From IMG/VR virus record IMGVR_UViG_3300008110_000081: a stretch of 64,000 nt of DNA; one strand, 5' to 3'. The notes below the pieces were generated by a model, which searched no databases, had not been told where the DNA came from, and saw only the letters and a list, made by a program, of their open reading frames with translations. The position numbers were made by a program, and so were the translations under genes. This document shows, piece after piece, positions 29,733 to 60,741 of the stretch (position 1 is the first letter of the stretch; every line of letters begins with the position of its first letter). This DNA comes from an uncultured virus (IMG/VR IMGVR_UViG_3300008110_000081). Taxonomy: Duplodnaviria > Heunggongvirae > Uroviricota > Caudoviricetes.

Positions 29733-32700
29733 TATCTTGGAGAGTAAAGTTCTTTATTATTTGTCAATATTACAAGCATTTTTTTATCACCACAAACTTT
29801 TTTTCTTAAGAACACTGTGTTGGTGTAATGTCTGAATTTCTTTCTTTGGAATGAAGGCTTGTTGTAATTTAAGTTGTTAGGGTTCAGAGTTCTGTTATAA
29901 CCATTTGCTCCTGTGTTCCAAATCATACGTTGAGCATTAGGATTATATTCACCTCTGTTATCTGTGATATCCCAGAACTGGTTGAATCTGTACTTGTTCT
30001 CAACCTTTGAGTAAAGTATATCAATCATGTTTAAATGTATGATTGGATACTTGATCATCTCCATTGGCTTATTCTTGGGAGCAAGGTTTAAGTTTAACAT
30101 ACCTGAGACCTGCTCTGTATTATAAACCACAGCTTGATCAAAGTTAAAATCTAATACATGGAACCGGTCATAGTTGTTAGGTGCATATTTGAAACACTCA
30201 AGTTGGTACTCAATACTTCTTACAGTGTTTATTGTCTGTACTGTGTCAACCATATACTCAACTTCAAATGGATAATCTTTACCATAGAAGTTACAATAGG
30301 TATTAGCTGTTACAGAATTATGAATCCATATACCTGAATCTTTAACTGTAAGGAAAGTGTTTTTACCTGGCATCATTAAGCTAGGGTGCCAGTCATGGTA
30401 AGATATCCAGTTCTTAGTTTTAGGATCATAGCTTATTGTCCAAGACGCGTCTTCAAAAAATCTCTCATCTCCTAGTAACACTTGGAATGATACTCGATCA
30501 TTATTAAGCACGTTGAATATATTTGAAGTTACATAATCCAAGGTAGTTCCTGCAGGTAAATCTGTTTTAACAACATAATCTTTTTTGGTAAAATAGATTA
30601 AACCATTCTGATTATCAAACATTGATTGACAGCCTATACCAATTACAGGATTGTCAGTTAACTCAAAATTTGGATATGTTTCTGTAAGCTTATAAGGCAG
30701 GTACATAATCAACCACCATTTTAAATCTTGCATGGATATTTCAGTTAATCCGCCAGAGTAACTAAATATCTTTCCTTGATTTTGACTCATCCAGTATGGC
30801 CCGATCGGAGTATTAATTACACTCAGTCTATCCTGACATGAGGCATACTCATAAGGTCTATCAGCATTTACAATTGCTTGTTGTGGTTGTGAAAATAACT
30901 GACCATCACCAATAGTAAGTGCAGTACCAGTTCCTGTTTGTAACTGATCAAGACCTTGAAACATTATAGGACTTTGTGAGTCAAAGAAGAACATAGCTCC
31001 ACTCTTGTTTATATTCTTAACATTGGTTACTATAGAATCAAAGTCATAATAGTTATTTGGTAAGAAGTCTCTCCAGTAATCATGTAAATTTTCATACTGT
31101 ACAGGTAAAGAATAAATTACGCGAGAATCTTTATACACATAACAGGTCTCTGCTAAAAAAGGATCATAATTATATCTTTGAGTTGTAGCCCAGCTAACAT
31201 AATTTAAAAATATTTTAGAAATACTTAAAGAGTCATCATACTTATAATAGTTACCTGCTTTAATAACATCAGTGCTAAACATTGATTTTAAATCAGTAAA
31301 TCTATATGGATCATAATGTTGTTGCTCTATTGTTTCTCCCCAATCTCTTAAATCAATATTATAATCTGACTCAACATAAAAGTCTTTAACTCCTGAATTA
31401 AATAAATAAAACCAAGCATTTTTAATTGATAATCTGAAATTATTAAACGCAGAAGAAACACTAAAAGGCAATGGTGGACAAGAGTCACCGTCTAAACTGT
31501 AAAAACTACTTGGTAAAACTAAATTATTAGAAAATGAAGCACTACCTAAAGCTGAACCTAATGAAGACATAAAATCTCCGGTTTCAAACTGATTAAAGTT
31601 CCCCCAAAATCTAGGCCACGCTACCATTTGATTTCTTGTATAATCAAATTGAGCACCATCAGGCTGACCATATAACCAATTAAAGAAATAATAAAATGTA
31701 TTCTTCTCCGTGTATCTTCCTATATAAGTATCTCCTCCAAATACAACATCTGATGAAGTTGTTGATCCCAATGGATTTCTGGCAGGAGCAGGGAAAGAGC
31801 AATAAGAAGCAGGTACTATTATTACACCTGTGATTTGACCATACTGATTTCTAATACGTTGTTTAAGTGATCCATAAAATGAGGAAGCTCTTTGAGGAGT
31901 TCCACCACTACCTAAATTGGTATAACTATTTTGTAAACCAATTTCAATTTTTGTAGGATCTCTTGGTACAGGTGTAGTATTACCAGATATTGTAGGATCT
32001 ACTTCAAGTAAATCTAAACATTGTGTAGCTAATATTCTAGTTCTTTCTACAAGTGTAGGATCTTGAGCAAGTCCTGATTGTAAAGAATTTATTTCTAATT
32101 TAATTCCAACAGTTTTTGCTCTGTATAAATTATTAACTCTACTTGTTAAATCAAAGTTTGTAACTTGAGGACCTATATATAAAGAATTTTCTATACTGTA
32201 TCTTATTTGGCTACTAGGTGCTGGAGGTAAATAGCTATCATAATAACAGTGTGATTGATATCTTAATGCATAATCTTTATAAGATACAAAAGTTCTTATA
32301 AGCTCTAAAGTTGAATCAGTACCTTGAGTCCAGTAATTTAAAAATAAAGGTATATTACCAGCAAGACCCATACCAGATCCCATAGCATTTAACGGACCAT
32401 CTTCTTGATCCATGCTTTTTAAATATTTTTGAACACCTCGTGAAGAAATACCTATTAAGTTAGCAATACCTAATGCAACATCTCCTGAAGCTGGAGAACC
32501 TATAGCAGTCGTAGTAACAACATTAAGATTTGATGGAGATTGACCAGCTAAAAATAAAGGTATACGGATTCCACCCGTTGTCCAAAATGCTTGAGATGCT
32601 ACACTTTGAATTTGTCCAAATATTGAGTTTATGATTTGAGCAAATTGATCAAGTGGTGAAGTAATACTACCTTGACCAACCGGTGACACATTCGCTTGTA

Positions 32701-34996
32701 CACTTGTTGGTAGAGTATACTTAGCACTTCTTTTACCATTCATAGCTAATAGACCAATACCTAATCCAGCAATAGCAGATATAACAAATGTAAAATTAGT
32801 TATAAGCTTATGTTTAGGATGCTCTTCAGATTTTTGAAATTGTCCAATAACACCTCCATTCATTTCACCATGCAGTTTTAATTCACTACTTGATAGATAA
32901 GGATCTTTAAAATTAGTATCAGGGCTGTGAAAAGTAAGATATTGTTTTGAAGTATTACCATAACCTACAGCATTATAATTTGTAGATGGGCTATTGGTTC
33001 CATTAAAAGGAGAACAAACCTGAGGTGTTATTTCACTGGTTGATAAAAAAGGATCATCATATAAATCATTATATGGATAGTTAGGGTATAAACCATTTAT
33101 GTTACTGTTAGGTATATCATAAGTTCTCATGTTTGAGATGAGACCTTTGGCTAATATTGTTTTATTACCGTTACGCGTACCTCTTAATATTTCATAACCA
33201 ACAACACCAGGTATAGCTGTTACACCATCATTCATTAATGGGTATTTGATATTCTCAAACTTAACACCCATTATTCTTATTTTATCTTTTGTTGCATTCA
33301 AATATTCTATAGGTCCTACTACTTGATTTGGTGGTGGTATAGACCCTAAAGGTAGATCAGGAAATCTATGATGTCTAATAGGTGTACCACAAAGATCTAA
33401 AGTGGTTAATGGAATACTAATACCAGCAGCAACTAAATCATAAGGATTAACTGATGTGTTAAAACCTCCTGTGTTAGGAATGTTATTAATCAAGCCTAAC
33501 GGATTAGTCACTGAATTCCAAACTTGTGGTTTCTTATCAGGATATAATTCTGTAGATTCCCAGTATCCCATAAGACCTTCACCAACAACTACACCTCCAT
33601 CTGATAATACAGTATTAGGAAAACCTGTAATTATTGCTGTATTTTCAACTAGCCATTTATAATTAATAAGCCCGCTAATTTCATCTTCTAAAGCATTAGA
33701 AGTTGTTGGAGCTAATTCAGATGGTATAGCTCCTCTACCAGGAATATGGTATGCTGATGATTTGTCTCCGGTGTCATATACCCAACGGATAAAGAAGGGA
33801 TAAACCTCATCACGCATGTAGTTAGTCTTGTTACCACCATTTCTGTAATAATTTGTTGGGTATTCTACAGACTGCCATTTAACAACAATTTGATTTGCTA
33901 AAGGCTGGTAGTTAAAATCTTCTTTTGTAGTTGTTCCAGATCTTACTAGATAATCTCCAACATTAAACATAGCATCTGTTTTTTCAATAACAGGTGTCAT
34001 GATTGGAATTTGAGAAATAGGTATAGATGGCCAAGTTGAATCTATTGTGTCAAAACTTAATCTTTTCTGACGTGTGCTATAAACACCAGCTTGTCTTGCT
34101 ATACTTTGTTCATTAGTATATGAGATAATAGCAATAATTACTTCATCAAAAGTCTGATCAAGACTATTCATAGAAACATCTATAGATGATGCAATATTAT
34201 TGTGATCAAATAAAGCTTGTATATTAGACACATACCAATCACTGGCTTTAATTCCATTTATAGCATAAGCAACAGCTATAGCATAAGAACCGTTTAACAG
34301 TGTTCCACCGCTGATTCCTTTTAAAATCTCAACACAAGGTACTTCTATTAAACGTGATATACGTATTTTTTCACAATCAATCTGATATGTATTATCACAA
34401 GTAACACAATTGTTTGTTGTAACACAATTGGTAACCCAAGGGATTGGTGAATTAGGATTTGTTTGTTGTGGTACAATAGGCTGATAATTTGAGTCAACCA
34501 GGAAAGGGAAGTTATTACCAATATTCTCAATATCAACATTGATTGTTCTTGATACATTGTTTGTATCATCCCAGTAAATACCAAATACACAAGTGCTATT
34601 AGCTCTTGATACACCTTTAATAAGATTGGTTGTTTTAAAGTTTAAACAAGTATTATCTTCAATGATGGATATCATTTGACAAAGGTTTTCTTTAAAAATA
34701 CTAATCTGTGATATAGTATTGTTTGTAGAAAATATTGCCCAGATATCTGCATATAAATGTACAACACCTATTATGGTTAAACGTGTTCCAGGATTTATCC
34801 TAGTAGTAATTGCTTCACCACATGGTAAGTTTGAAGGCTCATTACCTAACTTACCTAAATCACCAGTTCTAGAATTATTAATAGCATTGCGCGCGTGCGT
34901 CCAAGAGTTCTCCGGTAAATGATAATCATTTACATCTTCATTTAAACTCTTATCAAACCGGCGAGTTGATGTTGGGTTATTATCTTGTTGTGCCAT
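29732..34996 (-). CDS. Tail muzzle / tail stabilization protein (P22 gp10-like, crAss type; 1754 aa)
   Basis: Beta-rich; YMRDEVYPFFIRWVYDTG..SAYHIPGR, FHSPD, FGGDTYI and WTISYDP..WISYHDW segments typical of crAss muzzle proteins; follows ring-protein genes. Confidence 0.8.
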   Translation of the reverse strand: MAQQDNNPTSTRRFDKSLNEDVNDYHLPENSWTHARNAINNSRTGDLGKLGNEPSNLPCGEAITTRINPGTRLTIIGVVHLYADIWAIFSTNNTISQISIFKENLCQMISIIEDNTCLNFKTTNLIKGVSRANSTCVFGIYWDDTNNVSRTINVDIENIGNNFPFLVDSNYQPIVPQQTNPNSPIPWVTNCVTTNNCVTCDNTYQIDCEKIRISRLIEVPCVEILKGISGGTLLNGSYAIAVAYAINGIKASDWYVSNIQALFDHNNIASSIDVSMNSLDQTFDEVIIAIISYTNEQSIARQAGVYSTRQKRLSFDTIDSTWPSIPISQIPIMTPVIEKTDAMFNVGDYLVRSGTTTKEDFNYQPLANQIVVKWQSVEYPTNYYRNGGNKTNYMRDEVYPFFIRWVYDTGDKSSAYHIPGRGAIPSELAPTTSNALEDEISGLINYKWLVENTAIITGFPNTVLSDGGVVVGEGLMGYWESTELYPDKKPQVWNSVTNPLGLINNIPNTGGFNTSVNPYDLVAAGISIPLTTLDLCGTPIRHHRFPDLPLGSIPPPNQVVGPIEYLNATKDKIRIMGVKFENIKYPLMNDGVTAIPGVVGYEILRGTRNGNKTILAKGLISNMRTYDIPNSNINGLYPNYPYNDLYDDPFLSTSEITPQVCSPFNGTNSPSTNYNAVGYGNTSKQYLTFHSPDTNFKDPYLSSSELKLHGEMNGGVIGQFQKSEEHPKHKLITNFTFVISAIAGLGIGLLAMNGKRSAKYTLPTSVQANVSPVGQGSITSPLDQFAQIINSIFGQIQSVASQAFWTTGGIRIPLFLAGQSPSNLNVVTTTAIGSPASGDVALGIANLIGISSRGVQKYLKSMDQEDGPLNAMGSGMGLAGNIPLFLNYWTQGTDSTLELIRTFVSYKDYALRYQSHCYYDSYLPPAPSSQIRYSIENSLYIGPQVTNFDLTSRVNNLYRAKTVGIKLEINSLQSGLAQDPTLVERTRILATQCLDLLEVDPTISGNTTPVPRDPTKIEIGLQNSYTNLGSGGTPQRASSFYGSLKQRIRNQYGQITGVIIVPASYCSFPAPARNPLGSTTSSDVVFGGDTYIGRYTEKNTFYYFFNWLYGQPDGAQFDYTRNQMVAWPRFWGNFNQFETGDFMSSLGSALGSASFSNNLVLPSSFYSLDGDSCPPLPFSVSSAFNNFRLSIKNAWFYLFNSGVKDFYVESDYNIDLRDWGETIEQQHYDPYRFTDLKSMFSTDVIKAGNYYKYDDSLSISKIFLNYVSWATTQRYNYDPFLAETCYVYKDSRVIYSLPVQYENLHDYWRDFLPNNYYDFDSIVTNVKNINKSGAMFFFDSQSPIMFQGLDQLQTGTGTALTIGDGQLFSQPQQAIVNADRPYEYASCQDRLSVINTPIGPYWMSQNQGKIFSYSGGLTEISMQDLKWWLIMYLPYKLTETYPNFELTDNPVIGIGCQSMFDNQNGLIYFTKKDYVVKTDLPAGTTLDYVTSNIFNVLNNDRVSFQVLLGDERFFEDASWTISYDPKTKNWISYHDWHPSLMMPGKNTFLTVKDSGIWIHNSVTANTYCNFYGKDYPFEVEYMVDTVQTINTVRSIEYQLECFKYAPNNYDRFHVLDFNFDQAVVYNTEQVSGMLNLNLAPKNKPMEMIKYPIIHLNMIDILYSKVENKYRFNQFWDITDNRGEYNPNAQRMIWNTGANGYNRTLNPNNLNYNKPSFQRKKFRHYTNTVFLRKKVCGDKKMLVILTNNKELYSPR

Positions 34997-34997
34997 A

Positions 34998-36065
34998 TTA
35001 CATATATAAACCTGATCTTGTTCCTGTTATTCCTTCTCCTCTAAAATCATTAGGATTCTTATCCCATTGATACCATGGATATGATTTAAACATGTCATAG
35101 TATCTTGCATACTGAGCTCTTCTATTCATCCACCATACACGTTTCATTTCTGCAAAGTTAGGTGTATTAACAATTGATAAAGCTTGGTTTCTAGCTGCCC
35201 TTAATCTTGCTTCTACAAGTTGTAATTTAGCTGTTACATTCTCGTCATTCATTAAAAGATTTTCAAGAATACGTTGTTTAACAGCATATTCATAATACTC
35301 ATTAATCATATCATGATCAGGAATAAGCAAGTTACCATTATCGTCTTCAAGAGCACCTTGATAATTTATATACACTTTACCTGTTCTGAATGTTGTGTAT
35401 AGATAACCATCTCTAATCCAAGCTTGGTTATTAGTGTTTAAGTATAAGTTAGGGCAATCACAATCAATACTTTGAGGATTCTCAAGTATTCTAAGCGGCG
35501 CTAATCTCCTGTATGTATTTGTTCTTGTTCCTACAACTTGAACTAACTCATAACAATCATCTTTACAATTCATAAACACGCGTGGTTTAATACATGTGTT
35601 ACCATATTGTTCAAGAGGATTATAAACACAATTAGAAGGTTGAGTATTACAAGAACAAGAACAAGGTGCTGATTGACATACTGTACAATTTACTGTACCA
35701 TCAGTACAAGCGCTTATAACTTGAGGAGTTTCCCTGTACTTAGCCACCATTGGAGTATTGATAGGTATCTCCTGTATGTTAGTTCCTTGTGGAAAAGTCT
35801 GATCAACAGAAAAATCATCACACACCATTGCAAAGTTTAACACAAAAAAGTCATCTGGTAATTTAACACGTCCTCTGTCAACTTCAAGTAAAGTTTCTTT
35901 AGTCATGTAAACTCTTAGACCCAAATCATAATTAATCCTCTTAGCAACCTTGATTAATTGCTGAGGTTCTATCATGTTCTGTAATGATAAGTTTTGAAAG
36001 TCAACCTGAACATCACTGAGTAACTGCTCAAAAGTTCTGTATTTTAGTGTGTAATTGTAACTCAT
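34998..36065 (-). CDS. Tail ring (tubular) protein with Cys-rich insertion (355 aa)
   Basis: VKLPDDF..., GKVYINYQG..DDNGNLLIPD..YYEYAVK pattern of crAss ring proteins; adjacent to muzzle gene. Confidence 0.65.
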   Translation of the reverse strand: MSYNYTLKYRTFEQLLSDVQVDFQNLSLQNMIEPQQLIKVAKRINYDLGLRVYMTKETLLEVDRGRVKLPDDFFVLNFAMVCDDFSVDQTFPQGTNIQEIPINTPMVAKYRETPQVISACTDGTVNCTVCQSAPCSCSCNTQPSNCVYNPLEQYGNTCIKPRVFMNCKDDCYELVQVVGTRTNTYRRLAPLRILENPQSIDCDCPNLYLNTNNQAWIRDGYLYTTFRTGKVYINYQGALEDDNGNLLIPDHDMINEYYEYAVKQRILENLLMNDENVTAKLQLVEARLRAARNQALSIVNTPNFAEMKRVWWMNRRAQYARYYDMFKSYPWYQWDKNPNDFRGEGITGTRSGLYM

Positions 36066-36093
36066 TGTTAAATGTTTTATTCAGTGTTGTTAA

Positions 36094-36768
36094 TTAACTA
36101 CGTAATGGTGATTGCTTATCTGCCGTTGCTTCTTGCGGAGCTTGCAACAAAAATGTTAAATCTTTAATTACAGCTTGTTCAATTTCTGCAAATAGATACT
36201 CGGGGAAATGAGTGGCGTCATCCTGGCGTAGTTGGCAAACATCACCATCGCAGATATACATATTAATGCTCTCATCCCATAAACCTTCAATCCGTACAGC
36301 TTCCCAAGATATATTAGGGAAATACAGATAGCCATTCAAGTACCAGTAATATTTATTCTTGTTGTATTTAAAATTTGTAGTACGTGTCATTGACGCGTAA
36401 GTAGTAGGATAAGTCTTGAAACATTCCTGAGATCCGTCCATAGAACTTACAGTTCTGAACAAAGGTCCATAAGCTCCTTCAAGTACAGTAGGCAACTTGT
36501 CCTTTGTACGCATGATCATACAATTAGTTTTAATGTCATTGCAGCAGGCCTCTATTCGGTCTACCTCAACAAGATCTACGCAAGGTAATGGTTCAAACAA
36601 ACTCTGGAAACGCATGATTTTGTTTTCAGTATCCTGTCTTTTAATGTACAACTTTGCGTACTTAAGTACTAGACTATAAAGAAAACGGTCAGTCAAGAAA
36701 GCATCTTCCTTAACTCCTTTTACAAGATTTCTTACTCTTGATATTGTATCACCAATTGATGTTGCCAT
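36094..36768 (-). CDS. Tail ring protein (224 aa)
   Basis: YYWYLNGYLYFPN and FPEYLFAEIEQ pattern; synteny HU-ring-ring-muzzle. Confidence 0.6.
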   Translation of the reverse strand: MATSIGDTISRVRNLVKGVKEDAFLTDRFLYSLVLKYAKLYIKRQDTENKIMRFQSLFEPLPCVDLVEVDRIEACCNDIKTNCMIMRTKDKLPTVLEGAYGPLFRTVSSMDGSQECFKTYPTTYASMTRTTNFKYNKNKYYWYLNGYLYFPNISWEAVRIEGLWDESINMYICDGDVCQLRQDDATHFPEYLFAEIEQAVIKDLTFLLQAPQEATADKQSPLRS

Positions 36769-36779
36769 TGTATTAATTT

Positions 36780-37355
36780 TTAATCCATATCAAACTCATT
36801 GTAATCAAGCACGTCTGTTTCATGCTTCTTCTCAAAGAATTCTTTTACTGTTCTTTTTTTGTAAAGACTATTAATCATCTGAAAGTTCTCAACTTGTACA
36901 TAACGTTTCCAGTTTTCCGGATAAGTTCTACTAACAAGTCTTGTAAAATCTCTTATACCTTTAAATTGCCACAACTCTCTATCTCTAAACTTATACTTAT
37001 TAGCATAATTGGTATAAAAGATTTTTGCAACATAAGAGTCTGATTCAAAGTTGCGGTGTTGTAAAGCTGTCTTGTATTTGATAGAAGTTGGGTAATCTGT
37101 GTTGTGCTTCCTTGGTGGTTTACAGGTGCCAATAAAGACGTAACCTAAGTTCTCTGGTAATTCAACACCATCTCTATTATCAATGATTTCATTGTACATT
37201 AAAAGAGAATGTGTGTTAATTATCTTTTTTAAGGTACTATTAGGAACAGCGGCATACTCAGGATATTTCTTTTTAAACACTCTGTAGAATTTTTTTGTTA
37301 AGACTGTAAACCTTACCGGTCTAAATCTAGGAGCTGATAAATCTGGTTGTCTCAT
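36780..37355 (-). CDS. HU/IHF-like DNA-binding protein (191 aa)
   Basis: Basic; helix-helix then GVELPENLGYVFIG resembling the HU beta-arm; crAss-like phages carry an IHF-like gene in the tail module. Confidence 0.6.
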   Translation of the reverse strand: MRQPDLSAPRFRPVRFTVLTKKFYRVFKKKYPEYAAVPNSTLKKIINTHSLLMYNEIIDNRDGVELPENLGYVFIGTCKPPRKHNTDYPTSIKYKTALQHRNFESDSYVAKIFYTNYANKYKFRDRELWQFKGIRDFTRLVSRTYPENWKRYVQVENFQMINSLYKKRTVKEFFEKKHETDVLDYNEFDMD

Positions 37356-37384
37356 CTGTTTTTATGTTGTTGGTATACAAGCAC

Positions 37385-37420
37385 AATATACAAAAATTTT
37401 TTAAATTTTAAAATAAACTT
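37385..37420 (-). promoter_or_regulatory. Putative late promoter (AAGTTTA..TTTGTATATT) after terminator
   Basis: Same motif, between the terminator and the HU-like gene. Confidence 0.55.
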
Positions 37421-37428
37421 TTTAAGTG

Positions 37429-37461
37429 TAAAAGCAAATACCCCAGATTACTCTGGGGCAT
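37429..37461 (-). terminator. Rho-independent terminator after the Cys-rich operon
   Basis: Minus strand TGCCCCAGA-GTAA-TCTGGGGTA followed by TTTGCTTTT. Confidence 0.75.
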
Positions 37462-37503
37462 CCACCTGTCAGTCACGTTATACCAACAAACCGTGACATT
37501 ATC
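37429..37503 (-). ncRNA. Candidate 3'UTR-derived antisense sRNA
   Basis: Hairpin GTCACG-GTTTGTTGGTATAA-CGTGAC plus terminator; complementary to leader motifs of six genes in the window (see findings). Expression not shown. Confidence 0.45.
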
Positions 37504-37785
37504 TTATGGTGCCGGTGGGCAAGGTGCATAGGTTACAGTAAAAGGAGCTCTTGCTTCTGTTGATTCTTCAGGTTCACACAATGGTTGTAAGTAACCCTCA
37601 AATTCAATATTGTCACAATCTGGTGGTGTAATACCTGTTGATATTACTACACTACATGCTCCAACAGTAGGTGTACATGTTACTAATGAACATACATATG
37701 GACTTGGTGATCCAACTATGTGCCAACAAAGTCTATACTGTCCTAAAAAGTATGTACTTGTAAAGTTTATTGTTAAGTCAATCAT
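37504..37785 (-). CDS. Small Cys-rich putative virion protein (93 aa)
   Basis: Tightly packed last ORF of the Cys-rich block; beta-rich with several Cys. Confidence 0.65.
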   Translation of the reverse strand: MIDLTINFTSTYFLGQYRLCWHIVGSPSPYVCSLVTCTPTVGACSVVISTGITPPDCDNIEFEGYLQPLCEPEESTEARAPFTVTYAPCPPAP

Positions 37786-37787
37786 AA

Positions 37788-38333
37788 TTAAACAGTTAAA
37801 GGTTTAGTAGTAAAAGATATTGTAACTGATCTACATCCGTAATTACCATCACAACCCGTTGTTACTCTTACATAGTATTTAGTATTAGGTGTTAATCCCG
37901 TTATGGTTGCTGTATTAGTTGAAGAAACTGAACTTGTCCATGTTATGTTATCAGTACTATATTCAACTTTATAAGTTACAGTAACAGAAGGTACAACAAT
38001 AGCATTCCAATATAAGGATACACTTGTAGTTGTAACATTTGTTGTTTGTAAATTAACAGGTGATCTTTTACATAAATCAGGATTTGTTACACAGTCTTTG
38101 TCAATAGTTGTATAAATAGCTATTTTTTGTAAAATAACACATAAAGGGTCACCTGTTTCAATACCCATATTTACAATAGGATCACCGGTATGTATAATAC
38201 AACAATCATCAAATGTTTCTGGACAAGCTGATGGTGGTGGACATGTTACTACATCACATGAGCAAGGTGCCGGCGTTGTTAAACCGGTATCTCTGCATCC
38301 ACAATTTTTATTTTTACAAGTATTTGTTGTCAT
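37788..38333 (-). CDS. Cys-rich protein with C-terminal fibronectin type III domain (181 aa; start revised to 38333)
   Basis: MTTNTCKNKNCGC start sits 2 nt after the upstream stop; FN3 signature PVNLQTTNVTTTSVSLYW..TYKVEYS..ATITGLTPNTKYYVRV. Confidence 0.75.
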   Translation of the reverse strand: MTTNTCKNKNCGCRDTGLTTPAPCSCDVVTCPPPSACPETFDDCCIIHTGDPIVNMGIETGDPLCVILQKIAIYTTIDKDCVTNPDLCKRSPVNLQTTNVTTTSVSLYWNAIVVPSVTVTYKVEYSTDNITWTSSVSSTNTATITGLTPNTKYYVRVTTGCDGNYGCRSVTISFTTKPLTV

Positions 38334-38335
38334 GA

Positions 38336-39892
38336 TTATGGTAAAGGTATTGATGCGGTTACTACTAAATCTGTTATTGCTAAACACGGATAAGCCAATG
38401 TTGTTACTTCTGTAAAGTTACAAGTTACTTCAGAACATCCTGTACATCCTGTTGTAACAATTTTAATACGTATGTTATAAGTTGTGCCATCAGTTAAACC
38501 TGTAAAGCTTCCTGTTATTAAACCACCTGTGGATACAACAGTTTGCGTTGAAACAATTGATGTCATTAAAGCATTCCACAACTCAATCGTATAAGTATAG
38601 TTACCTACAGGCGCTGTAAAGTTATAAGTAATTTGATCAAATAAAGGTGATGTAGTTACATTAGGACAAACAGCTTGATTAGATACATAATACTCTAAAC
38701 AAGATTCACAAGTTGTTCCTGTACTATTATCTCTTAAACAAGGCTCAACTTCAACTTCAAGATCCAAAGTTGTATTAAGGATTGTACTAGCTAAAGATAT
38801 AGCATATCCACCTAAGAAGTTTAAATTGGCAATCATGTCATAAGTAAAAGTAACTGAATTACCAGCACTATCTGTAACTTTCACAGTTGTATTCCCAGTA
38901 CATTGTGTAAAATTAGAAGGTATTGTACCATTTATATAAATGGTAAGATATTCAGTCACACTGTCAAATGATGCTATTAAGCTAAGAGATATACCATCAC
39001 AACCAGAAGGACAGCAATTAGCTTGAATATTTTGAATTGCAGCGCGCATATCACAAATTGTAATCCACAGGTTACCAACAGAGTCTGCTAAGTTATCAAC
39101 AGTATTATTCCATCCTAGTATAGCTGACATGGGTCCTCCTCCTGGTGCTAGTTTTGGAGATGTTCCTAAACCACTACACTGTTTTGCTATATTAAGATAC
39201 AACTCAGTTGGGGTACCGGTAGCATACTGCAAGTTACAAAATTGAGTTTCCAGTGCTGTTAGTACTAAATTCATATCCGTTGGTACGGAAGGCAATACAC
39301 ATACTGGTGTAATTAGTGGTGCAATATATTGTGTGTCTTCTAATATAGTAACTTGAGTTTCTAAATTACCTACTCTAGCTCCTACAGCTGCTACTGCAGT
39401 ATCTGTAAGATTATTAGAAATAATTAAATTACAAATTTTATTACCAATAGCAGTTACATAATCTTTTAACTGTAAAACAGTTACAGTATCACCTATACCA
39501 TTTACAAATTCAAAGCACGGTGCTATTGTCATTTCACAGTCTGGACAACCATCTGCAGGTACTGGTGGTGGAACTGGAAATGTACCATCACAAGTTGGTG
39601 CACAACCAGTACAAGCTTCTAAATTGCAAATCCTATCAATTAATAAATTTATTAATTCTGTAAAGTCACTAGGTAAGCAGGTTGTTAAATTAAAACATGA
39701 TATATCATATTTACCATCAGCTAGTGATAATATATCCTGTAACCTACACAATTCTGTAGCTACATCATATACAACATCACTTACTGTATCACCTTTACAT
39801 AAATTAATACATGCTATGTCTGGACCTTGCCAGATAACACAATTAGATGATATTGGGTTACATCCTGGATTATCGTTGTTTAATGGTTTCAT
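38336..39892 (-). CDS. Cys-rich fibre-like virion protein with coiled-coil and C-terminal FN3-like domain (518 aa)
   Basis: Many Cys; heptad-like VAAVGARVGNLETQVTILED; C-terminal FTGLTDGTTYNIRI. Confidence 0.7.
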   Translation of the reverse strand: MKPLNNDNPGCNPISSNCVIWQGPDIACINLCKGDTVSDVVYDVATELCRLQDILSLADGKYDISCFNLTTCLPSDFTELINLLIDRICNLEACTGCAPTCDGTFPVPPPVPADGCPDCEMTIAPCFEFVNGIGDTVTVLQLKDYVTAIGNKICNLIISNNLTDTAVAAVGARVGNLETQVTILEDTQYIAPLITPVCVLPSVPTDMNLVLTALETQFCNLQYATGTPTELYLNIAKQCSGLGTSPKLAPGGGPMSAILGWNNTVDNLADSVGNLWITICDMRAAIQNIQANCCPSGCDGISLSLIASFDSVTEYLTIYINGTIPSNFTQCTGNTTVKVTDSAGNSVTFTYDMIANLNFLGGYAISLASTILNTTLDLEVEVEPCLRDNSTGTTCESCLEYYVSNQAVCPNVTTSPLFDQITYNFTAPVGNYTYTIELWNALMTSIVSTQTVVSTGGLITGSFTGLTDGTTYNIRIKIVTTGCTGCSEVTCNFTEVTTLAYPCLAITDLVVTASIPLP

Positions 39893-39907
39893 TTTAACTC
39901 TTTATTT

Positions 39908-39917
39908 AATATACAAA
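39908..39917 (-). promoter_or_regulatory. Putative late promoter core TTTGTATATT
   Basis: Exact copy of the motif upstream of 39892. Confidence 0.45.
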
Positions 39918-39941
39918 TAATTTTTATAATATGCTAATTTA

Positions 39942-42911
39942 TTATGGCTGCTCTTTACATTCTTCTGTTGCACAATCTAAAGATAATGGCGTAATGACAG
40001 ATATAAATCCAGTAAAAGTTGGTACAGTTGTAGAACATATATATTTAACTGTTCTTGAATCCCCTGGTATTGTAATAGTCTGAACAACATTATTACAATC
40101 AGTGTATGTTAAATAACAAAATCTAGATGCTGTACATTCAAGTTTAACTTCGTAGCAAATACACGTGGGTACAACAGGTTCTGGAGGACAGTTGCAATTT
40201 TGTAAATTACAAGTATTACAAGGCTCCGGTGTAGGACAACAAACAAATTCAGTATTTCTGATAGAGTCCAAGTCAAGTAATTCTTTTTTAATTAACCACT
40301 TGTCAAATGATTCATCACAGCATACTGTTAAACCATATCTTGCAGAAAGCATTCTGTTATAAAGTTGATCTCCATAATTGCAATTTACTTTCTCTGTATA
40401 TTCAGGGGAGCAAAAAGGCGTAGTGTAACCAGGTTTAACAAAACGGGTATTTAATACTAAAGGAGGTTCTGGTTCTGGTTGTGGTAAACAAGCATCACAA
40501 TTAGGTTGTGATATAGTTATACAATTTTCTACATTTAATACATCTTGTTCAATACCATCACCTAAAGTAATTGGACCATAAGTACTGTTTCCATATACTA
40601 CTATTATAAGTTCACCACCCACAATAGTATAACCAAACACACCTTGATTTAAAGAGTTTAACCAATTTATTAATTTATTAACTCCAAAACCAGTAAGAAC
40701 AGTAGATAATACAACACCGTTAATTGTTATAGTAACATTTGTTGATGGTAATAAATTACCATCCCCTAACTGTAAAGCTTGATATATGCAACTTTTTGTG
40801 TAAAAAACACATGTAGGTAATTCACAAGTTTGAGGTAGCGTTAAATAATTAATACATATTTGTTGGTAATTAGCGCTACCCGCAACATTTAAAATTATAG
40901 ATCCACCACCACCACCACCACCATTTGTAAATTCACCTATACTTAATGCATTAAGATCATCAATTATATTTGGACCAAATGGTACATTATAAGTTACATT
41001 ATCAACAGTAATGTCAACACTAACCGCTGAAGGATGTATTGGTTTAAAAGAGTATTTACATATTTTTTGATCTGAATCAAGTGGTGGATAATAAGATATT
41101 ATCTCAACCTCACCACCACAATCATCACAGTTTTCTGCTTCTGAAACAATCCAGCATGTATCTTTACAATTTTTAATTGTTATTACACCACCTAAATAAT
41201 CTGATAGATCTGTACCTGTAACTAAAGTAACGTCAGGATCAATACAGCTTGTTAATAAATAACAAAATGGTGGACAATTAATACAATCTTCACAAGTTGG
41301 TACAGTATTAATACTTGCTGTAGCTACTTGCCATGGTATAATAATAGGAGTAGTAGTTACTTTTGTTATGTCAATCTCAGTAAGTTTAAAACAACCAGTA
41401 ATATCATTAACATTTGTAATTATTACAGATGCTAAATCAGATGGTGCTAAACCTGATGGTGAAACACAATTATATTTTAAAATAACTATTCCATTAATAA
41501 TAGCACTATTAACTACATAAGGCTCATCTGTACAACAATCATTTAATGTAAAATAATAACCTTTACAACAAGGACAAGAGCCATATGATGTGTTAAGAAT
41601 AACACTAATAGGATTATTAATAACTGTAGTTTCTGTTACTGTCCAACATTTATCAGATCCCTGAATACTTATAGTTTGACCAATAGCAGCAGATAAATTT
41701 GTGTAAGTTGTAATAGTATTAGATGGATCATTACAATCCGTTAATAAATAAAAGCAACTTTGACACTGTGAAGATTCACAAGTTAAACCTAAACTAGTTG
41801 AAAAATTTACTAAAGCTGGTGCATTAACCGTACCAGTAAGAGTTGTAAACTCACTATAAGCATAACAAATATTTGGATATAAGGTATTGCCAAAACCGTC
41901 TGCTATAGGTGACCCATTATAAATGTATACATTACCTTCTGATAAATATGGAGATGTTGAGCTTAACTTAAAATAAGCTGTAAAACCACAACAAGAAGTA
42001 AACATTACTGATTTTTCATTACACTTTTCACAACTTGCATAAGATTGTGATGGATAAACCGGAATAGGTGTTGGTGATGACAGGTCAGTTTCTGTAACAA
42101 TCCAACAAGCTGCTGAATCAGCTATTGTGATAACTTGACCTAAGTAAATTGATAAATTACTGTATGATATTATAAAATCTTCAGAATCATTACAGTTACT
42201 TAATTTATAAAAACAATGTTGACACTGATCTAAATTACATGATTCAGGATTAATACCTAACAATGGGCCAAAATATATAGGAAGAGGGGCATTAATTCTA
42301 GGTGGTGTAAAACCATCACCCTTACCTGATATATAATAACATTGACCAGGATACATAATAGTTCCCTCAGAATCTGCTATGGGCGGTCCGTTATAAATAT
42401 AAGTATCATTTACATTACCATATAAAGCTAAAGAACTAGATGATATCTGAAAATAAACTCTTGCACCACAACAAGAAATAAAATCCAAGTTCACATAGCT
42501 CGTTGGATCAGCGCATTCTATACAATCTGTATATGCACTACTAATAGCAACTGGTGTATTAGTCAAACATTCTTTTGCTGCTGCTACTTGCCAACAAAGT
42601 TCTGAACCAGTAATTTTTACAGTTTGACCTACATATGCGCCTAAATTAGTTGATGTATTAATTATGTTAGTTGAATTATTACAAGCTGTAAGTTTATATT
42701 TATACACTGATGTAACAACATAAGTAATCCCAGAAGGGGCAAAAACTATTGGAATAACACTATTTGCCCAAATGTGTACAATAGGTGTAATAACAGGATC
42801 AACGACAATAGTTGTTGGAACGCCTGAACAATCAGTATATTGTATAGAATAGGTGGAAGTAGTAGGTGTTGTTAAAAATACTTCATATCCAAAACATGTG
42901 CAAATAGGCAT
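39942..42911 (-). CDS. Very Cys-rich modular repeat protein (989 aa), putative virion surface/fibre
   Basis: Four copies of Y(K/L)L(T/S)xC..LxxxxG..CWxV and two of FxSCCG..YIYNGxPIAD..YPxxCY; Gly6 linker. Confidence 0.7.
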   Translation of the reverse strand: MPICTCFGYEVFLTTPTTSTYSIQYTDCSGVPTTIVVDPVITPIVHIWANSVIPIVFAPSGITYVVTSVYKYKLTACNNSTNIINTSTNLGAYVGQTVKITGSELCWQVAAAKECLTNTPVAISSAYTDCIECADPTSYVNLDFISCCGARVYFQISSSSLALYGNVNDTYIYNGPPIADSEGTIMYPGQCYYISGKGDGFTPPRINAPLPIYFGPLLGINPESCNLDQCQHCFYKLSNCNDSEDFIISYSNLSIYLGQVITIADSAACWIVTETDLSSPTPIPVYPSQSYASCEKCNEKSVMFTSCCGFTAYFKLSSTSPYLSEGNVYIYNGSPIADGFGNTLYPNICYAYSEFTTLTGTVNAPALVNFSTSLGLTCESSQCQSCFYLLTDCNDPSNTITTYTNLSAAIGQTISIQGSDKCWTVTETTVINNPISVILNTSYGSCPCCKGYYFTLNDCCTDEPYVVNSAIINGIVILKYNCVSPSGLAPSDLASVIITNVNDITGCFKLTEIDITKVTTTPIIIPWQVATASINTVPTCEDCINCPPFCYLLTSCIDPDVTLVTGTDLSDYLGGVITIKNCKDTCWIVSEAENCDDCGGEVEIISYYPPLDSDQKICKYSFKPIHPSAVSVDITVDNVTYNVPFGPNIIDDLNALSIGEFTNGGGGGGGSIILNVAGSANYQQICINYLTLPQTCELPTCVFYTKSCIYQALQLGDGNLLPSTNVTITINGVVLSTVLTGFGVNKLINWLNSLNQGVFGYTIVGGELIIVVYGNSTYGPITLGDGIEQDVLNVENCITISQPNCDACLPQPEPEPPLVLNTRFVKPGYTTPFCSPEYTEKVNCNYGDQLYNRMLSARYGLTVCCDESFDKWLIKKELLDLDSIRNTEFVCCPTPEPCNTCNLQNCNCPPEPVVPTCICYEVKLECTASRFCYLTYTDCNNVVQTITIPGDSRTVKYICSTTVPTFTGFISVITPLSLDCATEECKEQP

Positions 42912-42917
42912 AGTTAA

Positions 42918-43088
42918 TTATTTTTTTTGATATAGAACTTTTGTTGCTGTAGGATTTACCACAGGCTTGTTTCCTAAAGAGGCTTCATATGTTCCAATAC
43001 AAGTACTACATACAGCCATTCCGTTACTTGCTGTTCTTCTTTGACAGCCACAGGATAACGCTTTTTTACAATTTGAGCAAGTTGACAT
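42918..43088 (-). CDS. Small Cys-rich protein (56 aa, below ORF-track cut-off)
   Basis: Translated by eye: MSTCSNCKKALSCGCQRRTASNGMAVCSTCIGTYEASLGNKPVVNPTATKVLYQKK; CxxC, CxC, CxxC; fills the gap between neighbours. Confidence 0.75.
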   Translation of the reverse strand: MSTCSNCKKALSCGCQRRTASNGMAVCSTCIGTYEASLGNKPVVNPTATKVLYQKK

Positions 43089-43111
43089 TTTCTTTGTTGG
43101 TTTAAAGATTA

Positions 43112-45272: not shown

Positions 45273-45722
45273 CTATTTTAAGAAAATTAATTTGTACTTG
45301 CCTGAATTAATTGTTGACTTAATCATGTCTAAGTCATTTACTATTTCTGAGTAGGGCATTTTAGCTTGTAAGCCATTCACCATCTCAGTCATTTCTTTTA
45401 AATAATCAATAGCTTCAGCTACTGTATTTAAGGTTCTTGGTGCAGCTTCTTTGTATGTTAAAAGTTTTTCAGAAGCTCCTTGGAAACCTTCAGCTAAGTC
45501 ATCAGCATGTCCAGGTAGAGCATCATAAAGTTCATTGAGAGCTTTATGGGCAGCATAGGATCCTGATCCTGATACCTTTAAATGCAATTTGTGGATGGCG
45601 GTTGCAGCATTCATTAATTCTGATACACATGCAGCTGTCATGGAATCTACTGATCCTGTTGTGGGAGCAGTATACTTAGCAGCTGCACCACCATCTCTTT
45701 TTAAAAATCTTTGTTGTTCCAT
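45273..45722 (-). CDS. Dps/ferritin-like protein (149 aa)
   Basis: HKLHLKVSGSGSYAAHKALNELYDALPGHADDLAE matches the Dps H-x(11)-H..D-x3-E ferroxidase pattern. Confidence 0.75.
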   Translation of the reverse strand: MEQQRFLKRDGGAAAKYTAPTTGSVDSMTAACVSELMNAATAIHKLHLKVSGSGSYAAHKALNELYDALPGHADDLAEGFQGASEKLLTYKEAAPRTLNTVAEAIDYLKEMTEMVNGLQAKMPYSEIVNDLDMIKSTINSGKYKLIFLK

Positions 45723-47932: not shown

Positions 47933-48946
47933 TTAATTCCAATTCTTTTCTAGTTTCTTGGTAATATCAACTAGAATGTTTTCCTGTAAAGGATTCTTTA
48001 AGAACTCAAGACACTCTGCAGCGTTACGACCCATTTGTGAACTTGAATCAACATGATAGATAAATCCATCAGGTTTTGCAGCTATGATTTTATAGAATGT
48101 TGCATCTTTAACCATGGCTCTAATCTTAAGAGTTTCCATGTCAAGTTCAACAGCATCTAAAAATGTCTGAGCTGCTCTCTTTAAGTTTTTCTCAATACCT
48201 TCACCATTAATATACGCGTCCATGTTAGAATATGTAACATCATGTGGTGTAGTCTTTTTGTACTGTACACTATTACCGTCTACAACTTTAGCAACATAAA
48301 ACAACTTGTTCTGATTCTTGTTAAATAATTTATCAAGTTCAGAGATAGCTCTGTTTTTAAGTTTAATAACTTCAGTCTTAGTGGATATAGTCTCAACGTA
48401 CTTATCAAGGTAAAACTTAGGTGGGACGTTTTTAGTTCTTGCAGCATCGTAACTAGGAGAGATCATTGCAAATCCTCCCGCTTCAATAGCGTATAATTTA
48501 ATCAAGTCATACGGATCTTTAGCAGGATCTAATGGAATGATCTCATTACCACAACGCATTGTGATTTTATTCCAGAACTCGTGGTTATCAGGTTTTAATA
48601 ATTTGATTTCATTCCAGAAATTAGGACTAGCTGGATCAACTACGTTTACAGCCAACTCTCTTTCAAGTTGTGCTACTACATTACGGATCTCTTTAATCTT
48701 AGCTTCACGCGTCTCTTTGTCTGCTATAAGTTTTACCTCAGGGGCAAATTCATTTAAGCCGGTTATGTAACGCATTATACCGTTACGCTCAATACAGGCA
48801 AGTTGTTCTTCATGGAATACCCCATCATAAAGGGCAATGCCATATTTTTCTAATCCTAAATTACTTGAGTTAGGATCAAAGTAGGGTTTAACGGATATAC
48901 GTCCGCTTTTTACATCATAAGGTGTTGAAACAATTGAAATGCTCAT
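47933..48946 (-). CDS. Conserved capsid-module protein downstream of MCP (337 aa)
   Basis: Synteny with the crAss-like gene following MCP; function unknown. Confidence 0.55.
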   Translation of the reverse strand: MSISIVSTPYDVKSGRISVKPYFDPNSSNLGLEKYGIALYDGVFHEEQLACIERNGIMRYITGLNEFAPEVKLIADKETREAKIKEIRNVVAQLERELAVNVVDPASPNFWNEIKLLKPDNHEFWNKITMRCGNEIIPLDPAKDPYDLIKLYAIEAGGFAMISPSYDAARTKNVPPKFYLDKYVETISTKTEVIKLKNRAISELDKLFNKNQNKLFYVAKVVDGNSVQYKKTTPHDVTYSNMDAYINGEGIEKNLKRAAQTFLDAVELDMETLKIRAMVKDATFYKIIAAKPDGFIYHVDSSSQMGRNAAECLEFLKNPLQENILVDITKKLEKNWN

Positions 48947-48993
48947 AATTTTTTTTTTGGTTTTAGTTGGTTGTTATTTGACTGACATTAATT

Positions 48994-51939: not shown

Positions 51940-51984
51940 CTTTTTATTTTTTGTTGGTTATTTTTGACTGACGGTCATATACTT

Positions 51985-52012
51985 AATATAACAAAATTAT
52001 ACAAATAAACTT
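51985..52012 (-). promoter_or_regulatory. Putative promoter for scaffold-MCP (AAGTTTA..TTTGTTATATT)
   Basis: Variant of the motif in the portal-scaffold gap. Confidence 0.45.
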
Positions 52013-52069
52013 TATAAATTTGACTTTTTTTTCAGGTCTATAAAGTTTTTCTGCATTATAACGCTAGTT

Positions 52070-59654: not shown

Positions 59655-60039
59655 AGCGTTTATGTTTTATTTGTTTTTGTTTTTCACTTTCTTGATTTAT
59701 TTTTACTTGTAGTTCATTGAGTATGTTTAATCTTTGCTCTGTCTCTTTGAGTATTGTAAATTTCTGAAAAGACGCAGTCTCTGGGTCATCTGTAAGAGTT
59801 TTATATTTGTTGTGAATTCTCTCATACTTGGCTATTGTGTCAGGTAATCTCCAGGGTTTAGCTTTAAATGTACCAAGACCTTCTAGTATAATATTAGGAC
59901 TAAGACCTTTAAGCATGGCTTGCTTCACATCTTTCCAGTAGTATTCTATAAGCTCTGCTACAAATTTCTCAGTTATGTTAAGCTCATTAGCAACGGGAGC
60001 ATATAAATCTTTAGGCTTCTTGGGGTTCAACGTACACAA
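59566..60039 (-). CDS. HU/IHF-like DNA-binding protein (about 157 aa)
   Basis: DLYAPVANELNITEKFVAELIEYYW..NIILEGLGTFKAK fits the HU fold. Confidence 0.65.
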   Translation of the reverse strand: MCTLNPKKPKDLYAPVANELNITEKFVAELIEYYWKDVKQAMLKGLSPNIILEGLGTFKAKPWRLPDTIAKYERIHNKYKTLTDDPETASFQKFTILKETEQRLNILNELQVKINQESEKQKQIKHKRYVEKTQKDMGEQSSDMGGLLEQNDIQEND

Positions 60040-60433: not shown

Positions 60434-60450
60434 GTTGGTATACTGACAGT

Positions 60451-60741
60451 TTAAACTTTAAGCTTACGCTCTTTCTTTTCAGTTTTGTCCACATCTAAAT
60501 CTGAACCATCCTCAGATTCTTCTGGTGGAGGTGTCATCATTTGAGCAATTCTGATATTCATACTAATTCTACGAGCTCTTGCTTCTTCAATATCAGCTAG
60601 GTATTTCTCATACTCAGCTTGAATTTTTACTAAAGGTAGTTGCTCCTTGTAATACGCCTGCATGTTAGTGCGCATTTGTTTGATTTCTTCTGGGGTAGGC
60701 TCACGCAGGTCTTGCGGATCCATGTTGGTTGTTTCTGACAT
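60451..60741 (-). CDS. Small coiled-coil protein (96 aa; true start may be 60723)
   Basis: ORF in operon; the leader motif GTCAG..ACCAAC directly precedes the second ATG. Confidence 0.65.
   Translation of the reverse strand: MSETTNMDPQDLREPTPEEIKQMRTNMQAYYKEQLPLVKIQAEYEKYLADIEEARARRISMNIRIAQMMTPPPEESEDGSDLDVDKTEKKERKLKV

What the first reader, a model, noticed from the sequence alone, without database searches (positions are those of the whole stretch)
37429..37503. Candidate phage sRNA antisense to a shared leader motif of six genes
Seen: after the stop of 37504..37785 the minus strand reads AATGTCACGGTTTGTTGGTATAACGTGACTGACAGG and then a terminator. GTCACG/CGTGAC forms a stem exposing TTTGTTGGTATA. 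Its reverse complement (CTGTCAGTCA-CGTTAT-ACCAACAAA) recurs in the sense orientation just upstream of start codons: scaffold 51939 (GTCAGTCA-AAAATA-ACCAACAAA, same 6-nt spacing), 48946 (TGTCAGTCA-AATAACA-ACCAAC), 60433 (CTGTCAGT-ATACCAAC-ATG), 60723 (TGTCAG-AAACA-ACCAAC-ATG), HU-like 37355 (TATACCAACAA) and 43088 (ACCAACAAA). The 37468-37490 copy is the only inverted one I found. Inference: a 3'UTR-derived trans-acting RNA pairs with these initiation regions and coordinates translation of assembly and DNA-binding genes. Alternatively the element is a decoy or an inverted protein-binding site. I know of no such regulon in crAss-like phages.
Basis: partly seen in the sequence, partly recalled or inferred. 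Interest (0 to 1): 0.9.

Follow-up and report, generated by a model that had tools for sequence, protein, structure and literature searches.

The report
Conserved phage hairpin RNA mirroring leaders
A large group of uncultured crAss-like phages keeps one small RNA hairpin just before a terminator, and its unchanging loop is the mirror image of a short tag in front of the start codons of a few virion genes, so it is a good but unproven candidate for a phage-made RNA that controls their translation.

Summary
The sequence is as described. On the minus strand, 3 nt after the stop codon of ORF 37504-37785, lies a 6-bp hairpin (37497-37472) with a 14-nt loop, then a long intrinsic terminator (37467-37432).

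It is a real, selected element, with one copy per genome. A covariance model finds it in 37 of 80 related loci. In 10 or 11 of 14 further records it lies about 1.5 kb further upstream. The stems change completely and keep G.U pairs on the gene strand only. The loop core GTTGGT never changes. A terminator follows in 37 of 37 loci.

The loop is complementary to an A/C-rich motif, (A)AACCAAC(A)AA, which stands 0-20 nt before start codons. ACCAAC is in 89 of 1820 leaders against 20 expected; its reverse complement is in 5.

The "six-gene regulon" shrinks. Leaders 51939, 48946, 60433 and the small ORF at 43088 are conserved. The 60723 site is coding sequence. The 37355 leader carries the motif in this phage only. 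The leader of the 337-aa gene is the one constant partner.

The second half-site (GTCAGTCA against TGACTGAC) is confined to one clade. Changes in the loop are not matched by changes in the leaders, or the reverse. No transcript ends were seen.

Verdict: the RNA element is real. An antisense role is the leading reading but unproven (about 0.45).

The parts
37504..37785 (-). Upstream ORF (93 aa, Cys-rich, no family match). Its stop codon is 6 nt before the hairpin. In relatives the gene at this place varies (93 to 880 aa).
37472..37497 (-). Hairpin 1: 5' arm GTCACG 37497-37492, 14-nt loop 37491-37478, 3' arm CGTGAC 37477-37472.
   Evidence: Stems covary in relatives. Sense-strand G.U pairs. The only model hit in the window.
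37478..37491 (-). Loop GTTTGTTGGTATAA. The core GTTGGT is invariant in 27 of 27 aligned variants. It is the complement of the leader motif ACCAAC(A)AA.
37465..37471 (-). Tail TGACAGG. With the 3' arm it gives TGACTGAC, the complement of GTCAGTCA in the leaders, in one clade only. ACAGG is also the foot of the terminator stem.
37430..37467 (-). Intrinsic terminator: 16-bp stem (core CCCCAG/CTGGGG 37458-37441) and a U-rich tail.
   Evidence: A terminator-like hairpin with a T-rich tail follows the element in 37 of 37 related loci. The tool's own scan did not list it.
37385..37424 (-). Promoter-like block AAAAGTTTATTTTAAAATTTAAAAAATTTTTGTATATT of the next gene. It is conserved in relatives and recurs before other genes.
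   Evidence: Compare the tripartite middle/late promoters of crAss-like phages, bioRxiv 10.1101/2020.03.07.982082 (passages).
37367..37377 (-). TATACCAACAA in the leader of ORF 36780-37355 (191 aa): an 11-nt complement to the loop. Absent from the 5 closest relatives.
48966..48987 (-). Leader of the 337-aa gene (47933-48946): TGTCAGTCA-aataaca-ACCAAC, directly after the terminator that follows the capsid gene (49019-49000). This leader is the conserved partner in all 18 hairpin genomes where it could be read.
51950..51972 (-). Leader of the 413-aa gene (50698-51939): GTCAGTCA-aaaata-ACCAACAAA, downstream of a conserved promoter block.
60434..60449 (-). Leader of the 140-aa gene (60011-60433): CTGTCAGTATACCAAC, then ATG.
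43089..43101 (-). Leader of a 56-aa Cys-rich ORF (42918-43088): ACCAACAAAgaaa, then ATG. Conserved before the homologous 61-73-aa ORFs of relatives.
60724..60741 (-). ATGTCAGAAACAACCAAC: not a leader but codons 1-6 of ORF 60451-60741.

Best explanation
The element is a conserved structured RNA at the 3' end of a late virion-gene transcript. It is a short hairpin that displays an invariant U/G-rich loop, (U)UUGUUGGU(U)U, followed at once by the intrinsic terminator.

I take the loop to base-pair, as a loop-to-single-strand 'kissing' contact of 6-12 nt, with the A/C-rich motif (A)AACCAAC(A)AA. This motif lies 0-20 nt before the start codons of a few virion genes, above all the 337-aa gene that follows the capsid gene. 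Pairing there would cover the ribosome's landing site and lower translation.

The RNA could act in trans, as a stable 3' fragment protected by the terminator (a 3'UTR-derived sRNA). It could also act in cis, as a 5'-3' contact within the roughly 11.5-kb transcript that may run from the 337-aa gene's leader to this terminator.

Shown: the structure, its conservation, its strand, the terminator, the complementarity, and the enrichment of the motif in leaders. Inferred: that the RNA accumulates, that the pairing happens, and the direction of its effect.
For: (1) Real structure.
- Stems of 5-9 bp with many different sequences in 27 variants.
- On the model alignment 81% of cells are paired, against 20-42% when the partner is slid. 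There are 13 double-change cells against 5.7 in shuffles. The covariation score is 0.311 against 0.215, reached by 1 of 500 shuffles.
- The stems are longer on the gene strand in 15 of 27 variants and never shorter. Mean MFE is -8.75 against -6.05 kcal/mol.

(2) Selection.
- The loop core GTTGGT is invariant in 27 of 27 variants, while the flanking 191-aa protein is only 40-64% identical.
- There is one model hit in the 64-kb window.
- The element is found in 37 of 80 loci anchored on the 191-aa gene.
- It is found displaced upstream in G017, G018 and G020 and in G019, G024-G029, and probably G023.
- A terminator follows it in 37 of 37 loci.

(3) Complementarity with leaders.
- ACCAAC is in 89 of 1820 40-nt leaders of 20 genomes against 20.3 expected. 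Its reverse complement is in 5.
- AACCAAC or AAACCAA is among the ten most enriched leader 7-mers in 9 of 20 genomes.
- The 337-aa gene's leader holds a 6-12-nt exact complement of the genome's own loop in 18 of 18 hairpin genomes. Among 36-135 leaders it ranks first in 8 genomes and within the top four in 16.

(4) In the window, 3 of the 5 best duplex sites are leaders. For shuffled queries the figure is 0 of 20.

(5) Joint absence. G021 has neither the hairpin nor the motif: 0 of 92 leaders carry it and the 337-aa gene's leader lacks it. G028 shares G021's distinctive intergenic block before the 191-aa gene, although how closely the two are related was not measured. G028 keeps the hairpin and ACCAAC in just that one leader.

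(6) Position. The motif ends 0-5 nt before ATG in most conserved leaders. That is inside the stretch a 30S subunit covers (general knowledge).
Against: - No compensatory change. Loop variants in G007 (complement AAACCAACTTTAC), G008 (AAACCAACTAAAC) and G009 (AAACCAACCAAAC) face unchanged ACCAACAA leaders. G017 and G020 changed their leaders to ACCAAAC while the loop stayed the same.
- Leaders are A/C-rich and the loop is U/G-rich, so some complementarity comes cheaply. Duplex energies (-25 kcal/mol) are no better than those of shuffled queries. By energy, leaders clearly exceed the background in only 5 of 19 genomes.
It may reflect a single origin.
- No small RNA was shown. Metatranscriptome contigs of two runs of one study cover 37475/6-37667/87. 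They carry no strand, they may hold DNA, and they probably break where related phages share the conserved block.
- The host is unknown, and so is any RNA chaperone.
Confidence: 0.45

Rival explanations
1. The hairpin is a protein-binding or polymerase-acting RNA signal tied to the terminator. It could be a 3'-end stabiliser, a termination enhancer, or a nut/boxB-like site read by a phage or host factor. Its likeness to the leader motif would be a by-product of U/G-rich against A/C-rich composition.
For: The element is always 3-15 nt before an intrinsic terminator (37 of 37). It stays with the terminator when another gene is inserted before the 191-aa gene. The loop does not covary with the leaders. 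In G028 the loop is unchanged although only one leader keeps the motif. Lambda nutR likewise sits between the end of a gene and a terminator (general knowledge).
Against: It does not explain why the invariant hexamer is the exact complement of the leaders' invariant hexamer. It does not explain why the same leader is first in 8 and in the top four in 16 of 18 genomes, or the joint absence in G021. A promoter follows the terminator everywhere, so read-through is not needed. No candidate binding protein was identified.
Confidence: 0.25
2. Decoy or mimic. The leader motif is a ribosome-recruiting tag that contacts a fixed host component, such as an rRNA segment or ribosomal protein S1. The hairpin loop imitates or competes with that contact. 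Both loop and leader would then be held constant by the host, not by each other.
For: It explains the strict invariance without covariation. It also fits the motif's position right at the start codon in many genes, including early-strand genes.
Against: No host is known and no rRNA match was tested. A 12-nt loop on a 6-bp stem is a poor mimic of a ribosomal site. This is pure inference.
Confidence: 0.1
3. A double-stranded DNA site, the reader's 'inverted protein-binding site'. A phage regulator binds GTCAGTCA-N6-ACCAACAAA at late promoters, and this copy is the same site turned round.
For: The motif lies just downstream of a conserved promoter block in the 413-aa gene's leader. A DNA site works in either orientation.
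Against: The flanking arms covary to unrelated sequences and keep pairing through G.U, which is a mismatch on the other strand (15 of 27 against 0). In leaders the motif is strongly strand-specific (89 against 5). The GTCAGTCA half is missing outside one clade.
Confidence: 0.05
4. No function beyond termination: a tandem hairpin kept by chance or by descent.
For: Tandem hairpins at ends of operons are common (general knowledge).
Against: The loop is invariant while the stems and the terminator turn over completely. The window's element folds with z = -5.4.
Confidence: 0.05

Closest known systems
3'UTR-derived base-pairing sRNAs of enterobacteria (CpxQ, SroC, DapZ type; recalled from general knowledge, no call)
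   Same: It lies in the 3'UTR of a protein gene and shares that mRNA's intrinsic terminator. It has a short conserved single-stranded seed complementary to translation-initiation regions of several mRNAs.
   Different: It is encoded by a phage and targets the phage's own late genes. The seed sits in a hairpin loop rather than an open 5' stretch. No processed species has been shown. An Hfq or ProQ partner is unknown.
Phage P1/P7 C4 and P4 CI antisense RNAs (Rfam RF01695; mechanism recalled)
   Same: A phage RNA hairpin whose loops pair with short repeated target sequences in the phage's own transcripts near ribosome binding sites. The RNA is cut from a longer transcript.
   Different: There is no sequence or structure match: no Rfam family reached its gathering score. 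At relaxed threshold five matches to unrelated families appeared, all far below their gathering scores, the best 19.4 bits against 100. In P1/P7 the loops and targets covary and set immunity specificity; here they do not. This is a late structural module, not an immunity region.
Lambda nut sites (boxA/boxB; recalled)
   Same: A small conserved hairpin in the transcript between the end of a gene and a terminator.
   Different: No boxA consensus or N-like protein was identified. A promoter follows the terminator, so read-through is not required. The loop is 12-14 nt, not a GNRA-like pentaloop.
Tripartite middle/late promoters of crAss-like phages (phi14:2; bioRxiv 10.1101/2020.03.07.982082, passages read)
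   Same: A conserved promoter block stands before the structural gene next to portal and before the gene downstream of the element, as reported for phi14:2 gp092, portal and IHF.
   Different: That work describes promoters. The passages seen mention no terminator-proximal hairpin or leader motif. Its logo figure and supplementary file could not be seen.

Membership tests
3'UTR-derived base-pairing sRNA | Lies downstream of a stop codon and ends at the mRNA's own intrinsic terminator | tested here: met
   (37 of 37 relatives)
3'UTR-derived base-pairing sRNA | Conserved accessible seed complementary to target initiation regions | tested here: met
   Loop core invariant in 27 of 27. Complement in leaders.
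3'UTR-derived base-pairing sRNA | A discrete small RNA accumulates, by processing or from an internal promoter | tested here: inconclusive
   Only unstranded metatranscriptome contigs over 37475-37687.
3'UTR-derived base-pairing sRNA | Seed and target co-evolve, or regulation is shown by compensatory mutants | tested here: not met
   Loop variants (G007-G009) and leader variants (G017, G020) are uncompensated. No experiment was possible.
3'UTR-derived base-pairing sRNA | Dependence on an RNA chaperone (Hfq or ProQ) | not testable with these tools
   Host unknown.
P1/P7 C4 - P4 CI antisense RNA (RF01695) and any other Rfam family | Match to the family covariance model | tested here: not met
   0 matches at gathering score in the window. 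Only sub-threshold chance matches in 37350-37600.
Intrinsic (Rho-independent) terminator | G+C-rich hairpin followed by a U run at the end of a gene, stem covarying in relatives | tested here: met
   The consensus scan did not list it.
Structured RNA on the gene strand | Base pairs kept through compensatory and G.U changes on one strand only | tested here: met
Lambda-type nut site | boxA consensus plus a boxB hairpin bound by an N-like protein, needed to pass downstream terminators | not tested
   No boxA or N search was done. A promoter follows the terminator.

The most novel reading that the evidence does not exclude
A whole environmental lineage of crAss-like phages encodes a hairpin RNA at the end of its virion-gene transcript. 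Its invariant loop kisses the start regions of head and assembly mRNAs, either in trans as a stable 3' fragment or by closing the long late mRNA into a 5'-3' loop. This would set the translation of the gene after the capsid gene. It would be the first post-transcriptional regulon described for this phage group, in hosts that probably initiate translation without Shine-Dalgarno pairing.
Probability: 0.4. Interest if true: 0.8.

Novelty: new variant of a known kind. Interest (0 to 1): 0.62.

Why it matters
Gene control in crAss-like phages is known only at the level of promoters and the injected RNA polymerase. A conserved, single-copy RNA with a 12-nt invariant loop gives a precise and cheap handle on control after transcription. 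One hairpin and one leader can be tested with gel shifts, toeprints and reporter fusions, even without a cultured host. If the pairing is real, it shows how a phage times or balances virion proteins in hosts whose ribosomes rely on unstructured A-rich leaders. If it is not, the loop still marks an unknown RNA-protein contact kept by dozens of phage lineages. The element is also a compact marker for this phage group in metagenomes.

Tried and rejected
- blastn of 35000-40000 against cultured-phage records: no match. The nearest cultured capsid protein is Leptolyngbya phage Lbo-JY46 at 28% identity.
- Rfam: nothing at gathering score; only chance matches at relaxed threshold.
- The nearest held record, G001, is the same phage but covers only window 1-33887, so it says nothing on the element.
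- RNA evidence: six metatranscriptome runs hold 5-15% of the words of 36000-40000. Four were laid. Contigs only, with no strand and no ends. The lack of cover between the element and 37355 is not evidence.
- Co-occurrence of element and leader motif across clades. I first took G017, G018 and G020 to lack the element and to be counter-examples, but they carry it 1.5 kb further upstream. That leaves only G021 as a joint absence.
- The loose pattern AACCAA-N(0-10)-ATG equals its control and tells nothing.
- Correlated presence of the TGACTGAC tail and GTCAGTCA leaders: 7 genomes have both and 7 have neither. The 7 with both fall in one clade of 9, so this may be a single event.
- A loop-tail pseudoknot (UUUGU with ACAGG): dropped, because ACAGG is in the terminator stem.
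- A likeness of the element to the base of 16S rRNA helix 44 (from memory): dropped, because the stem sequence is not conserved.
- Model hits in G022 (the reverse complement of a leader) and G030 (E = 0.89) were not counted as elements.
- Literature: the listings showed no paper on such an element in crAss-like phages. Searches were swamped by unrelated papers, so this is not proof that none is in print. PMC8375218 (passages) deals with host promoters only.

Full report
**What is there.**
All long ORFs of the window lie on the minus strand. PHROG matches name a terminase large subunit (54858-57065), a portal (52070-54853), a major head protein (49031-50656) and several virion proteins. The capsid protein's nearest cultured relative is Leptolyngbya phage Lbo-JY46 at 28% identity, with weaker matches to uncultured crAss-like phages. 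The window is therefore a distant, environmental crAss-like phage.

After the stop codon of ORF 37504-37785 the minus strand reads gataat-GTCACG-GTTTGTTGGTATAA-CGTGAC-TGACAGG, followed by a terminator. Folded as RNA, 37503-37429 gives a 6-bp hairpin with a 14-nt loop, a 4-nt linker and a 16-bp terminator hairpin. The MFE is -31.6 kcal/mol, z = -5.4, and 0 of 200 shuffles fold as well. A conserved promoter-like block and the 191-aa gene 36780-37355 follow.

**The element is conserved and is RNA.**
- A first protein-anchored search gave one relative with the same arrangement but a changed stem (L002).
- A pattern scan gave 7 homologues among 15 matches.
- An unbiased search with an alignment of the 191-aa protein returned 80 loci. 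Their upstream sequences and a covariance model built from 27 variants show the element in 37 of the 80. The model hits the window once, both strands included.
- The stems differ widely (GTCACG/CGTGAC, ATCACG/CGTGAT, GCTGTGA/TCGCAGC, GTTGCAG/CTGTAAC, GTCGTAG/CTGCGGC and others). GTTGGT is invariant in 27 of 27 variants.
- On the model alignment 81% of cells pair, against 20-42% when the partner is slid. Double changes number 13 cells against 5.7 in shuffles. The covariation score is reached by 1 of 500 shuffles. This alignment was fitted to the model, so it leans towards the structure.
- Stems are longer on the gene strand in 15 of 27 variants and never shorter, because of G.U pairs. The fold therefore belongs to the sense transcript.
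- A G+C-rich hairpin with a T-rich tail follows in 37 of 37 loci, with different stems.

**The 'lacking' loci.**
Of the 43 loci without the element in their 1.2-kb flank, I examined 14 whole records.
- The hairpin plus terminator lies about 1.5 kb further upstream, before an inserted gene, in G017, G018 and G020.
- The same holds in G019, G024, G025, G026, G027, G028 and G029, and probably in G023.
- G022 (half a genome) and G030 gave no convincing hit.
- G021 has none.

The element thus travels with the terminator at the end of the preceding gene, not with the promoter of the 191-aa gene. The gene before it varies from 93 to 880 aa.

**The leader motif.**
With crude gene calls for 20 genomes, ACCAAC occurs in 89 of 1820 40-nt leaders against 20.3 expected. 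Its reverse complement occurs in 5. AACCAAC or AAACCAA is among the ten most enriched leader 7-mers in 9 of 20 genomes.

The motif stands before homologous genes across the group:
- the 413-aa gene between portal and capsid,
- the 337-aa gene after the capsid gene,
- the 140-aa gene,
- a 56-73-aa Cys-rich ORF.

In most conserved leaders it ends 0-5 nt before ATG.

The site at 37355 is found only in this phage (0 of 5 closest relatives). The site at 60723 is the conserved coding start MSETTN of ORF 60451-60741. The 191-aa protein has no HU/IHF match in PHROGs or Pfam.

**Loop against leaders.**
- In the window, 3 of the element's 5 best duplex sites are the leaders of 51939, 60433 and 48946, although leader windows are 3.3% of all windows. 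For four shuffled queries, 0 of 20 top sites are leaders. The energies are not unusual.
- Across genomes the constant partner is the leader of the 337-aa gene. In 18 of 18 hairpin genomes where it is on the contig, it holds a 6-12-nt exact complement of that genome's own loop.
- That leader ranks first in 8 genomes and within the top four in 16, among 36-135 leaders. It ranks 6th in the window and 7th in G002.
- G028 keeps the hairpin and has ACCAAC only in this leader. G021 has neither the hairpin nor the motif.
- In the window the only strong minus-strand terminator between 36000 and 55900, other than the element's own, is the one after the capsid gene, just before this leader. The leader and the element may therefore be the two ends of one unit of about 11.5 kb. 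This is inference: no transcript ends are known, and an internal promoter-like block stands before 38336-39892.

**What speaks against antisense action.**
- The loop varies in G007, G008 and G009, and the leaders vary in G017 and G020 (ACCAAAC). Neither kind of change is answered on the other side.
- By duplex energy, leaders clearly exceed the background in only 5 of 19 genomes.
- The second half-site (GTCAGTCA in leaders, TGACTGAC in the element) is present together in 7 genomes and absent together in 7. The 7 with both fall in one clade of 9 on a capsid tree, so this may be one event. GTCAGTCA lies 5-12 nt after the conserved TATATTA of the promoter block, so it may simply mark the transcription start. 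Part of the 'tail' is in the terminator stem.
- RNA-library contigs of two runs of one study cover 37475/6-37667/87. They have no strand and may contain DNA. They probably stop where related phages share the conserved 36-nt block. I count this as no evidence either way.

**Reading.**
The structured RNA is established (about 0.9). The exact match between the invariant loop hexamer and the invariant leader hexamer, the repeated top rank of one homologous leader, and the joint absence in G021 make RNA-RNA pairing at the start region the best single explanation (0.45). The likely effect is lower translation of the 337-aa gene and, in this clade, of the 413-aa, 140-aa and 56-aa genes.

The rivals are:
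- an RNA signal bound by a protein or polymerase and tied to the terminator (0.25),
- a decoy for a host ribosomal contact (0.1),
- a duplex-DNA site (0.05),
- no function beyond termination (0.05).

**Known or new.**
No Rfam family matches. The phi14:2 study (passages) describes host-type tripartite middle/late promoters in crAss-like phages, which fits the promoter blocks seen here, but the passages read do not mention this hairpin. My paper searches listed nothing on such an element.

Four earlier notes of this scan describe the same hairpin in other genomes. They agree with my reading but are not independent evidence.

The closest known kinds are 3'UTR-derived base-pairing sRNAs and the P1/P7 C4 antisense RNA. 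This element works like them on paper, but it fails the covariation feature and lacks proof of a discrete RNA.

Noticed in passing
window 51973-52020; 37385-37424; upstream of ATGs 39892, 26846 and 60741: A recurring promoter-like block (AAGTTTA...TTTG.TATATT(A)) stands before several genes and is conserved before the homologous genes of relatives. It resembles in position the tripartite middle/late promoters reported for crAss-like phages. The published logo could not be seen.
   Followed up: partly
window 60724-60741: The first six codons of ORF 60451-60741 (ATG TCA GAA ACA ACC AAC) look like the leader motif at nucleotide level. They are conserved as ATGTCAGA..ACCAAC in at least 7 relatives, and in G007 and G008 GTCAGTC/ATCAGTC directly precedes the ATG. 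It is unclear whether this is coding constraint or a start signal overlapping the start codon.
   Followed up: partly
G007, G008, G009 upstream of the 337-aa gene homologue (oriented positions about 19000, 47500, 83000): A tRNA-like 3' end (GGTTCGATCCTGATCT) lies directly before the leader of the 337-aa gene homologue, where the window has a terminator instead.
   Followed up: no
window 22537/22538 and 26406-26432 against record G001: G001 is the same phage at 99.9-100% identity over window 1-33887. It aligns in three pieces, with about 61 and about 900 extra bases in G001 at the two junctions, so there are indels or repeats there. G001 extends about 39 kb beyond the window's start.
   Followed up: no
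window 39942-42911: A 989-aa Cys-rich protein with visibly repeated modules and no family match. The small ORFs before the element (93 aa) and at 42918-43088 (56 aa) are also Cys-rich.
   Followed up: no
window 3-12539, 12542-17992, 29732-34996: Three giant ORFs (over 4179, 1816 and 1754 aa), typical of the crAss-like polymerase and ejection-protein block. Not analysed.
   Followed up: no
window 45273-45722: A 149-aa protein matching DUF5856 and PHROG 'starvation-inducible regulator / DNA binding protein' (ferritin/Dps-like). This, rather than the 191-aa protein, is the DNA-binding candidate of the module.
   Followed up: no
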